Part shown: piece by piece, positions 1,159-62,379 of the stretch
Layout: each line of letters begins with the position of its first letter
How positions within the stretch are numbered: the stretch's first letter is position 1
Assembly: GCA_964016885.1 (NCBI GenBank)
Contig: OZ024742.1
Span: 282,286,001 to 282,350,000, forward strand
DNA: 64,000 nucleotides
Direction: 5' to 3'
Source of the DNA: Eledone cirrhosa
Taxonomy: Eukaryota
Made by a program: the position numbers and the translations under genes
The notes under the pieces: model-generated
Told to the model about the DNA's origin: nothing
Seen by the model: only the letters and a program-made list of their open reading frames with translations
The model's database searches: none

Positions 1159-1390
1159 CTGCTTATAATTAATTGAATGTTATAAGAAAAATCTTCCTAC
1201 ATTAATATGTGAATATATTTTCTTTTGAGGGCAGATTGTTGACAGTAATGTCTATTGTTATAAGATTACAACTTACACTAATGAATAAGACGTTTTCTAT
1301 TATGGTAATTAGTTAGTTTAATGTACTTATTGATTTAAATGTTTCCTTCTTAACGTTGAGTCTTCAAAATTTAGTAATGAATTGTTATAT

Positions 1391-1580
1391 TAATAATTGT
1401 TTCTACTTTTGGCTCAAGGCCAGTAATTACCGCAGTGCATTGCACCAGTAATGGTGCTTTATTTTATCGACCCCGTAAGGATGAAAGGCAAAGTTAACCT
1501 CGGCGGGATTTGAACTCAGAATGGCAAGGGCCGTAACTCTATGCGTCAATGCATGGCGTCCGACCCTCTACCGATACTGA
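1391..1580 (-). mobile_element. tRNA-derived SINE with conserved central domain (octopus/Meta-SINE-like)
   Basis: Minus strand has B-box GAGTTCAAATCCC, central GCCTTTCATCCTTACGGGGTCGATAAAAT and tail AAAAGTAGAAACAATTATT. It is colinear with the copy at 57687-57865. Confidence 0.85.
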
Positions 1581-56759: not shown

Positions 56760-57310
56760 GAGAGAGGTTGATTGAGTAGAAGGGAATGTCCATTTTTCGC
56801 TGTTTTTCCGCTCCCTTTGTCCTATGCGCGCCCCCGTTTTGAATATATATATTAGAAAGTGAGGTTTTTTTACAAAATGAAAAAAAAACGAGGTGTCCTA
56901 CACGAGTGAAAGTATAAGGAAAAAAGATGAAATCGAAAATGCAACTGGAGTCTTTTTTTATATATATATATATTTATTTGATTCCTTTCGCAGTTCTTGT
57001 GCTTTTCAAAAGTAGAATTGAGATGGAGGGTTTGTGGTTTTTCTCACATCTGGTTGGTGTTTGAGAATGTTACTTCTGTTTTATATGGGAAAAAGTGGCT
57101 CGAAATGCCAGGTTTTTCGAGAAGTAATTTAGTTGGTTGGTGAATAAGTATAAATTTCGCGCCAGTTCGCGTTACAAAGTTCTTATTATATTTGCCTTCA
57201 AAAAAAGGGGGGCTCAGGTTGTTTTTTCATATATAAGTGAAGTTTGGTTGGTTGATGCAGTCACGTGAATAAGCACATCAGCTTTCGCGCCAGTTATTGT
57301 TTGAATTTCT
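56760..57310. promoter_or_regulatory. Possible promoter-like region with E2F-type, E-box and CHR-type motifs
   Basis: TTTCGCGCC at 57155 and 57283, GTCACGTGA at 57260, TTTGAA at 57300, and local CpG enrichment. No associated exon was identified. Confidence 0.3.
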
Positions 57311-57365
57311 TTTTATTTAAAAAAGAGTGAGCCACTTTTTTTTAAGTAAAAAGAAATTAAAAAAA

Positions 57366-57396
<31 letters not shown>

Positions 57397-57473
57397 CATA
57401 ACGGGGAGCGCGCATAGGACAAAGATATATATATAGTACAAAGACGAATGTTTTCTCCCTTCATTACCTTTAT

Positions 57474-57661
57474 GTGACACGCGTTTCGCTACTGATCAGC
57501 TGTAGGTTCGATCTGTATCGATCAGTCCCGACTCTGGAATCAAAAGCTCGTCGGACATCTGTCATTACTACTACAGACATCCGACGAGCTTTTGATTCCA
57601 GAGTCGGGTCAGATCAATATAGATCAAACCTTCAGCTGATCAGTAGCGAAACGCGCGTCAC
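57474..57661. mobile_element. Fold-back element, 89-bp arms and 10-nt loop, with degenerate hammerhead-like ends
   Basis: 57474-57562 is the reverse complement of 57573-57661 with 9 mismatches and no indel. Outer pairing CCTTCATTAC/GTAATGAAGG extends it to ~57456-57685. Confidence 0.85.
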
Positions 57662-57686
57662 CAACCAATAAACGTAATGAAGGAGT

Positions 57687-57865
57687 GATTGGCAGTATCG
57701 GTCGAGGGTCGGACGCCATGCTTTGCAGCAAAGAGTTGCGGTCCTTTATGGTCTGAGTTCAAATCCCGCCGAGGTTAACTTTGCCTTTACGGGGTCAATA
57801 AAATGAAGTACTAGTAATGCACTGGGTAATTGCTGGCCTTGTGCCAAAAGTAGAAACAATTATTA
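57687..57865 (+). mobile_element. Near full-length tRNA-derived SINE, same family as 1391-1580
   Basis: A-box TGGCAGTATCGG, B-box GAGTTCAAATCCC, central GAGGTTAACTTTGCCTTT..CGGGGTCAATAAAAT, tail GGCCTTGTGCCAAAAGTAGAAACAATTATT. Confidence 0.88.
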
Positions 57866-58889
57866 TATAACACTCTGTCTAGCTCTACACCTCGATACTG
57901 ACGTGAACCTAAACATCGAGTGCTTTGTTTACATTGTCCGTAAAATTTACTTTCTTTTTGTCTAGCTTGTTGAATTATATTAGTTTTGAAATTTGTAGAT
58001 AATAATATACAGACTAACATGAAACTATATAAACAAGTAAATACAGAAGTAAATATAACCTTCAGTAAATTAATGAAATTAACTTTTGTGAGTAAATGTA
58101 ACTGCAGTTTAATCCTAGAAATTAAATGAAAATTAAAGAATAGTGAAGATTTTATACAGAGAATATCATAATTTGAGTAATATATGATCTAAATATATTA
58201 TATGTATTGATGGTGACTTATGTATGGTATTAGATTTTAATACATATGTAATAATTATTCAAATACGCTTTAATGATTAATTCTTTTAAAGTTGTTACAA
58301 AATATTTATAGAATATCTTACCTTAAAATTAAAAATAATAATCTATAATGAGTTAAATTAAATTATATAAATGTTTAATTAAACTATATATGTGATTGCT
58401 ATAGAAAATAATGTATACTGATTAATTTTGATATAATATAGAAGTATAATTAGCTAATGCATAATCAAATACTAAAGATATTCAATTGTTTAGTTGAATT
58501 GATCCAGTATTTGAAAACAACGGTTTTTTCTCTATGCCCCTCTATTTGATGTTTCCTTTATTTTCTTTATTTTCTCTACTCCCCTCTGTTCCATTTACTT
58601 TCCTTGCACCTTACCTCTTTTGTCGTTATTCCTCTTTTCTTTTTTATATATTTCTTTTACTCATTCATCCTTTTATTTTTTATTCTTTATTCATTTATCT
58701 GTTTATGCATGTATTTTTGTTTTGCCTTTCCTCTTCTTTACACCCTCTCTCATATCTCTAATTTGCTATACGTCCTTTTCTTCTTTAAGTTTATCATATT
58801 ATTTGTGGTATATAAACATTGAGATTTGATGAAATAAATCACTGCCAATACTGGAATTGTATAATCAAGACCGTAGCGGTATGTCATGT

Positions 58890-58977
58890 ATCAAATCATA
58901 TATTTTATCTGATGAAGATATTGAAAAAACAACACAGTACCTTTGAAATATATATATAATAAAGCATATATTTTGAT
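58890..58977 (+). ncRNA. Type I hammerhead ribozyme motif (AT-rich)
   Basis: TTTTAT-CTGATGA(58909-15)-AGATATTG..CAGTACCT-TT-GAAA(58945-48)-TATATATA-TA-ATAAAG. Stem III is palindromic (AT)5, the triplet is AUA, and stem I extends ATCAAA..ATATAT / ATATAT.TTTGAT. Confidence 0.5.
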
Positions 58978-59068: not shown

Positions 59069-59162
59069 AAAAAAAGGAAAAGAATGACTTCACTTGTAGT
59101 GTTGAAACATTTTTTGATTTAATTTTATATTATAATATTATGAGTTGGTAGATCCAGTATAC

Positions 59163-59424
59163 TGCAATACACTGTATGGTTAATTTAAAGCATTTTGAAG
59201 ACCATACGATATTATTACTGGAATTCTATAAGAATCCAACTCACATAATTTTCATCAAACAGGGAGAGTAGTGAGCTTTGATAAGTACCAAGACGTACGA
59301 AACAGAGCTCTGTCAGCTTATCTGCCCTGTTTGCTCAATATTTAAGTAAGTGACATTGTTACTACTTTAAAACAATAGCGTATGGTCTTCAAAATGCTTT
59401 TAATTAAGCATACAGTGTATTGCA
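59163..59424. mobile_element. Element with ~54-bp terminal inverted repeats enclosing a hammerhead
   Basis: 59163-59216 matches the reverse complement of 59371-59424 with about 4 mismatches. Confidence 0.85.
59256..59333 (+). ncRNA. Type I hammerhead ribozyme, U3-A8 core variant
   Basis: CAAACAGGG..TGAGCT-TTGATAA(59278-84)-GTAC-CAAGAC-GTAC-GAA-ACAGAGCTCTGT-C(59314)-AGCTTA..CCCTGTTTG. All three stems pair and the triplet is GUC. Confidence 0.8.
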
Positions 59425-59477
59425 AAATACACTATATATACATTCATATATATATCACTATTTCAGAGCACCAATTC

Positions 59478-59509
<32 letters not shown>

Positions 59510-59512
<3 letters not shown>

Positions 59513-59686
59513 ACTAAAGAAATTAAAGAAATGATTTAGCCTGATAGTGGGGTTAAGAACCCTCGGATAAATGGAAAAAGATAAGTATTGACGTACATGT
59601 ACGTCAATACTCATCTTTTTCCATTTCTCCGAGGGTTCTTAACCCCACTATTAGGCTAAATTAATTTCTTTACTTTCTTTAGTCAA
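59510..59686. mobile_element. Loopless ~177-bp palindrome (fold-back)
   Basis: Centre ACGTACA|TGTACGT at 59597/59598, with ~88-bp arms carrying a few substitutions and one indel. The left end abuts (TA)n. Confidence 0.9.
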
Positions 59687-59752
59687 AATACGGCGATAGC
59701 TTACATTTCTAATAATTTCAAACCCACTCGCTGTTTCGAAAATATTCTTACT

Positions 59753-60073: not shown

Positions 60074-60204
60074 AAGTCCAAAATTAAGATAAATGAATTA
60101 AATAAATTTAATCTAAATCGAAATCATGGCTGTCATGACATAATGCATGCGCCATATATCCTGAGAATTTAAGCTCAAAGATAAATAAATCTGAGCATAT
60201 TATA

Positions 60205-60847
60205 ATAACTAGAGATTGATTAACATATAAAAATACATGAATAATCACAGGAGATAATTTAAGCTTGCGTGTAACCACGCATAGCTAGTTTAGGCAATAT
60301 TTACCTTTAAGTGTGATTAACTTTCCTTGTATATATCCCATTAAAGAAATATATTTCACCAATTAATCAGATGGTAAGTCACAGAAAGTGGATATTATTG
60401 GATTGTCAACAAGGAAATGGATAATATCCAGCTATCCGCGCTTACAGAGTGAGATCAAATCTTCAACTATCCGTCACCACGTGTTGCGTCCACACGAGAT
60501 AGCGGTTTCGTTTCAGTGGCGTGAAAAGGTATTCGACAACTAGAAATAGCAGTCAAAATTCGTCTCAACAGAAATAGCTCTACAATTAAGGAGCCGTATA
60601 TATTGATCTCGCTCTGTAAGCTGGATATTATCCCTTTCCTTGTTGACAATCCAATAATATCCACTTTCCGTGACTTACCATCTGATTAATTGTTGAAATA
60701 TATTTCTTTAATGGGATATATACAAGGAAAGTTAATCACACTTAAAGGTAAATATTGCCTAAACTAGCTATGCGCGGTTACACGCAAGCTTAAATTATCT
60801 CCTGTGATTATTCATGTATTTTTATATGTTAATCAATCTCTAGTTAT
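60205..60847. mobile_element. Fold-back element with ~250-bp inverted arms and ~145-bp spacer
   Basis: 60205-60458 matches the reverse complement of 60603-60847 with about 5 substitutions and a 9-bp indel (~60432-60440). Confidence 0.93.
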
Positions 60848-60856
60848 GATATATAT

Positions 60857-60910
<54 letters not shown>

Positions 60911-60914
<4 letters not shown>

Positions 60915-61673
60915 ATAGAGAAATTAATGTGAGCAAGAAGCCAACAGTAATTTATAATATATAAGTGACTATTACGTCAAGATAGAAAATATTTAACGTA
61001 AGATATGGGTAAATAATTCAATCTCAATTCAAAAAAAGTCAAGACAGGAATTTTATCCACAGATCTTGTGTAATGCAGGGAAAAAAAACCAATAGAGTCT
61101 TAACTCAGAATAAAATTAAGGGTAAATACTTATCCTTCAATTTGGAAAAATCTACAAATGCTCTATATAGTCTTCAAAAGACTATTTCACGAAATTTTTC
61201 AGTGGGGTTAGTCACGGTTGGCACCGTTCATCAGTAGAGCTCAAACACGATAACCAAATACCACTGCTAAAATATGCCAGAAAGGGAATTTAAAAGCAGG
61301 CTAGTTACACCTCGTGTGGAATAAAGATAATAAATACACATGAAGAACAGGGCTAGTGACGTCAGAATGAGACGAATGAGTGTTTACAAGAAACAGCAGT
61401 CAAAACATTCCGAAAAAAAACTCAACAAAAGGTATGGAGTTCAGCATAAAGCAATATTATCGCGGTTTTTTTTTTAACCGGGATTAATCACAAATAATTT
61501 TAAGCATCTAGGAAAAATTCCGAGTATAAATATAAATGAAAATAGAGAAATTAATGTGAGCAATAAGCCAACAGTAATTCATACATATAAGTGACTATTA
61601 CGTCAAGATTGAAAATATTTAACGTAAGATATGGGAAAATAATTCAATCTCAATTCCAAAAAAGTCAAGACAG
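60911..61673 (-). mobile_element. ~760-bp non-coding element with ~137-bp direct terminal repeats and an internal hammerhead (retrozyme/PLE-like)
   Basis: 60911-61047 is repeated at 61538-61673 (offset ~627) with few differences. (TA)n flanks both sides, and no ORF of 60 aa or more lies inside. Confidence 0.8.
61160..61240 (-). ncRNA. Type I hammerhead ribozyme, canonical core
   Basis: Minus strand: GCTCTA-CTGATGA(61234-28)-ACG..33 nt..CGT-GAAA(61188-85)-TAGTCTT-TTG-AAGACTA-TA-TAGAGC. Stem I has 6 bp, stem III has 8 bp, and the triplet is AUA. Confidence 0.82.
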
Positions 61674-61708
<35 letters not shown>

Positions 61709-61801: not shown

Positions 61802-61862
<61 letters not shown>

Positions 61863-61946
61863 GAAGGTTGCTTAGATGCGTCCATAGGCGGTATGCCGGT
61901 TGAGCACTCGGAAATTGAGACGGAAGATTTGCCTCAAAATCGCTTG

Positions 61947-62039
61947 ACGTATCTGAGGAACGTGCGAATCCAGAGTCAGGTTCGATCCACAAATAGATCG
62001 TAACTCGACCTGTTCGCCGGAGAAACAATTGTAATATGT
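61947..62039 (+). ncRNA. Type I hammerhead motif with long rod-like stem II
   Basis: ACGTAT-CTGAGGA(61953-59)-[GCGAA..CAG..GTC..GTT.CGATC/GATCG.AAC..GAC.CTG.TTCGC]-GAAAC(62022-26)-AATT-GTA-ATATGT. Stem III is the palindrome ACAATTGT. The base of stem II is mismatched. Confidence 0.65.
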
Positions 62040-62123
62040 AAATAAATTCGATGCATCTCAATTGTAATATGTAAATAAATTCGATGCATCCCAATTGTAA
62101 TATGTAAGTAAATTCGATGCATC
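62026..62123. repeat. 33-bp tandem repeat x3
   Basis: CAATTGTAATATGTAAATAAATTCGATGCATC(T/C) at 62026, 62059 and 62092. Confidence 0.95.
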
Positions 62124-62379
62124 ACTGATTCTTGGTTTTCTATAATATATATATATATAAGTATCATCCAATCTGATTGATTAGTCAATGAATTTGTCAA
62201 ATATACTAAAGCATTTCTCTGACGGAAATCGAAAATGCTTTATAAGGAGGAGCTAATATTTAGATTGAAAACTACTGATCTAAATATAATGATACTCTAG
62301 AATTGTCTGGCTTCTGATGATTTCTGTTGGCATGAATAGGAATGGAATTCTATTGTTTTATATATGATATATCAATAGA

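What the first reader, a model, noticed from the sequence alone, without database searches (positions are those of the whole stretch)
60911..61673. 1.2-unit element (627-bp period) with intact hammerhead: footprint of a circular or tandem RNA template?
Seen: ~137-bp direct repeats bound a non-coding interior containing a canonical hammerhead (61160-61240, minus strand), and the whole is embedded in (TA)n. The repeats lack TG...CA ends and I see no primer binding site. The ribozyme lies outside the repeats. Inference: a partial tandem duplication is expected from reverse transcription past the start of a ~627-nt circular RNA or from PLE-type integration. This monomer is larger than the few-hundred-nt metazoan retrozymes I know of.
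Basis: partly seen in the sequence, partly recalled or inferred. Interest (0 to 1): 0.8.

Follow-up and report, generated by a model that had tools for sequence, protein, structure and literature searches.

The report
Hammerhead retroelement inserted in TA repeat
This is one aged copy of a common, non-coding jumping element that carries a self-cutting RNA (hammerhead ribozyme) and lands in TA microsatellites the way Penelope-like retrotransposons do, a known kind of element whose ribozyme here has an unusual extra pairing.

Summary
In detail: two ~140-bp direct repeats 627 bp apart (130/137 identical), (TA)n on both sides, and one type I hammerhead on the minus strand that Rfam misses. It is not a one-off duplication: 2,045 and 1,882 contig pieces from one sample, 2,911 reads from another and 31 pieces from a second organism lay on it. 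The data point to a shared ribozyme-sense 3' end next to (TA)n, a family-wide head-to-tail junction and an unshared 5' end. That fits a non-autonomous Penelope-like element / non-LTR retrozyme copied from a fixed internal start for 1.22 units (0.75). Circle versus linear tandem template is undecided; no RNA data. The distinctive part is a long loop II predicted to pair 14 bp with the 5' flank. New member of a known kind; interest 0.38.

The parts
60911..61677 (-). Whole element, 767 bp = 1.22 units of 627 bp; sense strand taken as the ribozyme strand
60849..60910 (.). (TA)n target array at the element's 3' (sense) end
60911..61051 (-). 3' repeat (pLTR-like); its outer end is the inferred reverse-transcription start shared by family copies
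   Evidence: loose ends at the equivalent place 61525
61052..61159 (-). Spacer between ribozyme and 3' repeat; part of a predicted long hairpin
   Evidence: prediction only
61160..61240 (-). Type I hammerhead: stem I, core, short stem II with long loop II, stable stem III; predicted cut 61166/61165, 255 nt from the 3' end
61200..61215 (-). Loop II strand of the predicted pseudoknot
61250..61266 (-). 5'-flank strand of the predicted pseudoknot (6 + 8 bp, -15.7 kcal/mol; best other site in the unit -9.9 among 505 windows)
   Evidence: 6-bp helix kept in loose-end variants of runs X1, X4, X5
61214..61227 (-). Competing 5-bp hairpin of this copy; depends on the base at 61224, where ~85% of laid depth reads another letter
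61357..61364 (.). Perfect CRE-type palindrome, possible internal promoter element (name recalled; function untested)
61525..61537 (-). TA-like 13-mer at the head-to-tail junction (11/13 identical to pure TA); replaced by pure (TA)n at the outer 3' end; candidate target-pairing site
61538..61677 (-). 5' repeat = the 0.22 extra unit, ending with 2-4 nt of identity to the (TA)n flank; inferred truncation point
61676..61704 (.). (TA)n array at the 5' (sense) end

Best explanation
A non-autonomous retroelement family with a ~627-nt non-coding unit and one type I hammerhead per unit (non-LTR retrozyme type), mobilised in trans by a (TA)n-targeting Penelope-like element (Hydra or Neptune type most likely). 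SHOWN: unit, ribozyme motif, (TA)n site, many diverged copies in two organisms. INDICATED by short contigs: shared 3' end at the TA-like 13-mer, head-to-tail junction in other copies, unshared 5' end. INFERRED: a master of at least 1.53 units is transcribed; the helper's GIY-YIG endonuclease nicks (TA)n; its RT primes at a fixed site inside the RNA 255-268 nt downstream of the ribozyme cut site, copies through the uncut or re-ligated ribozyme site, passes its own start and stops after 1.22 units. The template was either a ligated monomer circle or an uncut linear tandem transcript; I put these near even (about 0.4 vs 0.5, template jump 0.1). This copy is a dead-end product: one ribozyme, repeats 5% diverged, stem II weakened.
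For: Family: 2045 (X1), 1882 (X2, same sample), 31 (X4, second organism) contig pieces and 2911 reads (X5) laid; 30 of 30 bins covered in X1, X2, X5 and 25 of 30 in X4. 3' end: loose ends ending in (TA)n before 61525 in 16 contigs of X2 (largest of the 6 X2 rows shown) and 1 of X4. Junction: X2 record 15 bridges 61524/25 with 70 and 38 letters and 13 substitutions + 6 gaps, so it is another copy; an X4 contig continues from the interior into a diverged repeat. 5' end unshared: depth in the last bin is 2.5%, 2.8% and 0.8% of depth at the equivalent repeat-to-interior junction in X1, X2, X5. Only 0-1% of X1/X2 pieces run on into unlike sequence, so no attached ORF is visible. Ribozyme under constraint: two large X5 read stacks (341 and 301 reads) carry the two halves of an A-U to G-C change in stem I; the common change at 61175 falls in loop III. 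Unit folded as a circle: z = -3.2, 0 of 60 shuffles as stable. Literature: internal RT initiation at AT-rich nicks in a PLE (PMC11167929); (TA)n insertion and canonical hammerheads near the 3' end in Hydra-clade PLEs, including an octopus family (PMC8557442); retrozymes as PLE derivatives.
Against: No whole genome, so no second full copy with flanks was seen and no dimer with two ribozymes is shown. Summed contig depth over the repeat is ~6 times the interior mean in X1 (108,000 vs 17,000), which a TRIM with solo LTRs would also give; raw RAD reads give 0.9; the tool warns depth is no copy number. In X4 the last bin is not depleted (7.3 vs 12.9; 31 pieces only). The two halves of the stem I change are on different read stacks, not one molecule. 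The antisense strand folds about as well (z = -3.0). No sequence link to a helper: 0 relevant matches of 10 short window words (9 sense-strand) in the Naiad/Chlamys/Hydra consensus files. No expression or cleavage data.
Confidence: 0.75

Rival explanations
1. A TRIM (miniature LTR retrotransposon) with 137-bp TG...CA LTRs and a ribozyme in its internal region.
For: TG...CA can be drawn at 60910-61046 and 61537-61672; size under 1 kb; repeat region ~6-fold deeper than interior in X1 contigs.
Against: No PBS or PPT in either orientation (purine fraction 0.55-0.6), both of which TRIMs carry; identity continues 5 nt past the CA, 3 of them not explained by the TA flank; right end not shared among copies; repeat/interior ratio 0.9 in raw reads; the T of TG belongs to the TA run and a CA that near the end has ~42% chance; a TSD cannot be read in (TA)n.
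Confidence: 0.1
2. The terminal (3' UTR / pLTR) region of an autonomous PLE, truncated and partly duplicated, not an independent non-coding family.
For: Hydra-clade PLEs have (TA)n targets and hammerheads with a stable stem III near the 3' end; 18 of 26 listed Hydra-clade motifs have U before GAA as here; retrozymes resemble pLTRs.
Against: No ORF over 74 aa and no Pfam hit at cut-off in 9 nearby frames; 0-1% of X1/X2 pieces run into unlike sequence and the interior continues into the repeat in other copies; no likeness by eye or short words to the published octopus Naiad and Hydra ends.
Confidence: 0.08
3. Two independent 5'-truncated insertions of the same TA-targeting element into one microsatellite, or a local DNA duplication, with the TA-like 13-mer as leftover target.
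For: The junction is TA-like (11/13); the region is full of elements inserted in (TA)n.
Against: The same junction occurs in at least one other copy in X2 and in a diverged form in the second organism.
Confidence: 0.05

Closest known systems
Metazoan non-LTR retrozymes (Cervera & de la Pena 2020, PMC7229834; Li, Clavereau & Pollet 2026, bioRxiv 10.64898/2026.07.22.740005)
   Same: Non-coding, GC 32%, type I hammerhead with stable stem III, head-to-tail organisation, no PBS/PPT, high copy, structured unit; size inside the 51-972 bp range of the 2026 preprint.
   Different: Only 1.22 units and one ribozyme here (the preprint's 'active' definition needs two); larger than the 170-400-nt circles shown experimentally; long loop II with a predicted 14-bp flank pairing in place of the usual loop 1-loop 2 contacts; circles not shown.
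Endonuclease-bearing Penelope-like elements, Hydra clade (also Neptune, Naiad) (Craig et al. 2021, PMC8557442); PAc mechanism (Frangieh et al. 2024, PMC11167929)
   Same: Partial-tandem insertion forming pLTRs, (TA)n target, fixed 3' end downstream of the hammerhead, variable 5' end; non-autonomous PLEs with pLTRs are described (MRC1).
   Different: No RT/GIY-YIG ORF; ribozyme lies outside the duplicated part in this copy; no sequence match to Hydra-1_Obim or the octopus Naiads; start is 255-268 nt from the cut site versus about 85-92 nt in PAc.
Pseudoknotted hammerheads (Perreault et al. 2011, PMC3088659)
   Same: Base-paired contact between the stem I side and stem II side; about 40% of hammerheads surveyed use one.
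   Different: Here 6 + 8 bp between a 31-nt loop II and the 5' flank of a type I motif in an animal retroelement; predicted, not probed.
TRIMs and plant LTR retrozymes
   Same: Short non-coding element with terminal direct repeats.
   Different: No PBS/PPT, type I not type III ribozyme, ribozyme not in the repeats, right end unshared.

Membership tests
Non-LTR retrozyme | Type I hammerhead with conserved core | tested here: met
   0 of 5000 and 0 of 100 resampled controls
Non-LTR retrozyme | Non-coding, under 50% GC, no PBS or PPT | tested here: met
Non-LTR retrozyme | Repeated family with head-to-tail units | tested here: met
   thousands of pieces; junction bridged in another copy
Non-LTR retrozyme | At least two consecutive ribozyme-bearing units (active element) | tested here: inconclusive
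   Not met by this copy (1.22 units; 1.53 needed); not visible for the family because laid pieces are at most ~250 nt
Non-LTR retrozyme | Self-cleavage and monomeric circular RNA in vivo | not testable with these tools
   no RNA holder listed
Non-autonomous Penelope-like element | Partial-tandem insertion with fixed 3' end and variable 5' end | tested here: inconclusive
   Favoured by 16+1 contigs ending in (TA)n at 61525 and by right-end depth of 1-3%, but no full second copy seen
Non-autonomous Penelope-like element | Microsatellite / AT-rich target | tested here: met
Non-autonomous Penelope-like element | Sequence shared with an autonomous PLE end | tested here: inconclusive
   No match to the published Naiad/Chlamys/Hydra consensus set by 10 short words and by eye; other PLE families and the host assembly not searchable
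Non-autonomous Penelope-like element | 30-40-bp tail / inverted 5' copy | tested here: inconclusive
   No inverted copy here; a tail needs several full copies
TRIM | TG...CA terminal repeats | tested here: inconclusive
   Can be drawn but near chance; identity runs past the CA
TRIM | PBS and PPT inside the repeats | tested here: not met
TRIM | Both ends fixed with 4-6-bp TSD | tested here: not met
   Right end unshared in 3 of 4 runs; TSD unreadable in (TA)n
Autonomous PLE | RT and GIY-YIG ORF | tested here: not met

The most novel reading that the evidence does not exclude
An abundant, probably cephalopod, retrozyme family whose ~627-nt circular RNA is copied by a PLE reverse transcriptase primed at an internal TA-like motif that pairs with the nicked (TA)n target, and whose hammerhead is a long-loop-II form held or switched by a 14-bp pseudoknot that Rfam and short-loop descriptors miss. 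Copy lengths and sites of private mutation would then give a genomic record of rolling reverse transcription on a circle, the step of the retrozyme cycle that is still only proposed.
Probability: 0.2. Interest if true: 0.62.

Novelty: new member of a known kind. Interest (0 to 1): 0.38.

Why it matters
Animal retrozymes are proposed to be mobilised by Penelope-like elements through circles, but the priming site and template are not established. A high-copy family with a defined 3' start, a TA-like priming candidate and an identifiable class of (TA)n-targeting helpers is a good test case. The long-loop ribozyme shows that such families can be missed by Rfam. This locus itself is most likely an inert old insertion.

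Tried and rejected
Own genome: none held. Six exact-pattern scans with two ribozyme patterns in viral, prokaryote-genome and metagenome contigs: 0 hits each. Rfam: 0 hits at gathering score in the window; 7 weak non-hammerhead hits at E<=10. Run search: no RNA holder listed, which is no evidence on expression. The joints '61655 goes back 625/622' and '60986 skips 625' were rejected as evidence for multimers or circles: they follow from the reference holding two copies of the repeat. No other copy in the window. Pfam on 9 frames in and near the element: 3 hits, all below cut-off. Idea that this ribozyme is the Naiad 'half-core' motif (35-50-nt spacing): by eye the 3' ends of Naiad_Ovul and Naiad_Obim have a different arrangement and share no words, so dropped. 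Earlier scan notes by sequence and place: none. The supplement of PMC7229834 could not be read, bioRxiv supplements are closed, and PMC5785218 is not held; any of them, and Repbase/Dfam or the O. vulgaris repeat library, may already list this family.

Full report
OBSERVATION. The window is AT-rich animal-type DNA: a 111-bp satellite spans 4206-55444 and the rest is microsatellites and small repeats. The element lies between (TA)n arrays at 60849-60910 and 61676-61704. Its repeats align with 130 identities, 7 mismatches and one gap, and identity runs to 61051/61677, giving 767 bp or 1.22 units of 627. The minus strand holds a type I hammerhead with a full core, 6-bp stem I, 3-4-bp stem II, and a stem III long enough for a monomer; the predicted cut is 61166/61165. 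A strict descriptor, fitted after the fact, found it once in the window and in 0 of 5000 resampled 764-mers and 0 of 100 resampled windows; a looser one also gave one AT-rich hit at 58909. Rfam did not detect it. No frame exceeds 74 aa, and none of 9 frames tested reached a Pfam cut-off.

THE RIBOZYME. Thirty-nine nt separate the two core halves because loop II is long. Loop II can pair with the sequence 5' of stem I in two helices of 6 and 8 bp (-15.7 kcal/mol; best of 505 other windows in the unit -9.9). The 6-bp helix is kept in loose-end variants from X1 and X4 and, through a G-U pair, from X5 (read by eye). Two large X5 stacks (341 and 301 reads) carry the two halves of an A-U to G-C change in the first pair of stem I; they are separate stacks, so linkage is inferred. 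Against 'intact': the nested MFE of this copy uses a competing hairpin (61214-61227, -5.5 kcal/mol) and the hammerhead fold is about 7 kcal/mol worse when the pseudoknot is ignored. That hairpin depends on position 61224, where about 85% of X1 and X2 depth reads another base, as does about 95% at 61222; so the defect looks private to this copy. Pseudoknots between the stem I and stem II sides are known in about 40% of hammerheads (PMC3088659, passages).

THE FAMILY. No assembly is held and six collection scans were empty. Seven public runs were listed, none RNA; I laid 4 of the 7 at 80% likeness: 2045 and 1882 contig pieces (X1, X2, one sample, possibly the window's own source), 31 pieces from a second organism (X4), and 2911 RAD reads (X5). 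All 30 bins are covered in X1, X2 and X5, 25 in X4; most X1/X2 pieces are 90-99% alike. The duplication is therefore one copy of a dispersed family. In the interior, 16 of the displayed positions differ from the X1 majority (at least 3.4%), comparable to half the 5% distance between the two repeats, as expected if both aged from near-identical sequences. Ends: (TA)n-ending loose letters precede 61525 in 16 X2 contigs and 1 X4 contig, which marks a shared sense-strand 3' end at the TA-like 13-mer. The interior-to-repeat junction is bridged by a diverged X2 record (70 and 38 letters either side) and continues into a diverged repeat in one X4 contig. The right end has 2.5%, 2.8% and 0.8% of the depth at the equivalent internal point in X1, X2, X5, but is not depleted in the 31 X4 pieces. 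Limits: only 24 of 531 loose-end rows, 40 of 155 variant rows and 24 of 3974 pieces were shown; pieces are at most about 250 nt; depth is not copy number; X1 depth over the repeat is about 6 times the interior while X5 gives 0.9. The 622-625-nt joints are mapping ambiguity between the two repeats and were not counted.

MECHANISM. In sense orientation the copy reads: 140 nt of unit end, TA-like 13-mer, unit body with ribozyme, unit end, (TA)n. Reverse transcription therefore started 255-268 nt downstream of the cut site, crossed it, passed its own start and stopped 140 nt later with a few nt of identity to the target. A cut linear monomer cannot give this without a jump; a ligated circle or an uncut tandem transcript can. 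The anole PLE PAc nicks AT-rich DNA, starts reverse transcription inside its RNA downstream of the hammerhead, and uses uncut RNA as its main template in vitro (PMC11167929, parts 1-2 of 4); retrozyme circles as templates are proposed but not shown (PMC7229834, parts 2-4 of 6; PMC4209133, parts 1-2 of 4; PMC7761336, passages). Both models predict this DNA, so the circle remains open. A fixed internal start means permuted starts are not expected even from a circle. This copy cannot make a monomer: two ribozymes need 1.53 units. Pairing of the nicked (TA)n with the internal TA-like 13-mer is my inference; PAc starts without such homology. The unit folded as a circle is more stable than shuffles (z -3.2, 0 of 60), but so is its complement (z -3.0).

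HELPER AND HOST. I recall the SINE at 1383-1693 and 57693-57872 (one search shows the copies) as an octopus SINE; no call names the host. Hydra-clade PLEs nearly all insert in (TA)n and carry hammerheads with a real stem III near the 3' end, and one is described from Octopus bimaculoides; Naiads also target (TA)n but lack canonical hammerheads and are old in cephalopods (PMC8557442: passages, section 11, supplement parts 1, 2, 24, 52 and word searches). Ten short window words gave no relevant match in those consensus files, so the helper is inferred from target and ribozyme style only. Penelope-like elements cover 6.83% of O. vulgaris in 190 families, 31 recently active; that paper's text and supplement do not mention ribozymes (PMC13282606, passages and supplement search).

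RIVALS. The end of an autonomous PLE, or two insertions in one microsatellite, fit less well with a junction shared among copies and the absence of pieces running into other sequence (0-1% in X1/X2).

NOVELTY. Non-LTR retrozymes and their PLE link are published, with units of 51-972 bp and many monomer copies (bioRxiv 10.64898/2026.07.22.740005, parts 1-3 of 5), so the size is not exceptional. Eight literature searches listed no description of an octopus retrozyme or of this ribozyme shape; 'octopus' with 'hammerhead ribozyme' gave 5 papers, 4 listed, of which I read passages of two. Repeat databases and several supplements were out of reach. Earlier scan notes report similar partial-tandem non-coding units in other genomes (unchecked). 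Verdict: real, a new member of a known kind, with an interesting predicted ribozyme variant; interest 0.38.

Noticed in passing
window 60197-60856: MITE-like element with ~260-bp terminal inverted repeats (94%; core 233 bp at 98%) directly beside the finding, abutting the same (TA)n array.
   Followed up: no
window 59506-59690, 59157-59430, 57458-57683, 57297-57365: Four separate palindromic or inverted-repeat elements (92%, 72%, 84%, 84%), mostly next to TA runs; a cluster of hairpin-forming insertions.
   Followed up: no
window 4206-55444: About 51 kb array of a 110-111-bp AT-rich satellite (~460 copies) with strong strand skew and signs of higher-order repeats of about 2.7 kb.
   Followed up: no
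window 1383-1579, 1580-1693, 57693-57872: Three copies of a dispersed SINE-like repeat (83-87% alike), recalled as an octopus SINE; name not from a call.
   Followed up: partly
window 61857-62124: GC-richer piece between TA runs ending in three 33-bp tandem copies; may be the 3' end of another retroelement; no Pfam hit.
   Followed up: partly
window 56815-56852 and 57386-57424: 39-bp inverted pair (90%) about 570 bp apart, possibly the ends of another small DNA element.
   Followed up: no
published Naiad_Ovul and Naiad_Obim 3' ends (PMC8557442 supplement): By eye both keep a conserved stem with a long loop that could pair with downstream sequence around the 'half-core' words; may be a structured RNA of its own. 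Not folded or tested.
   Followed up: no
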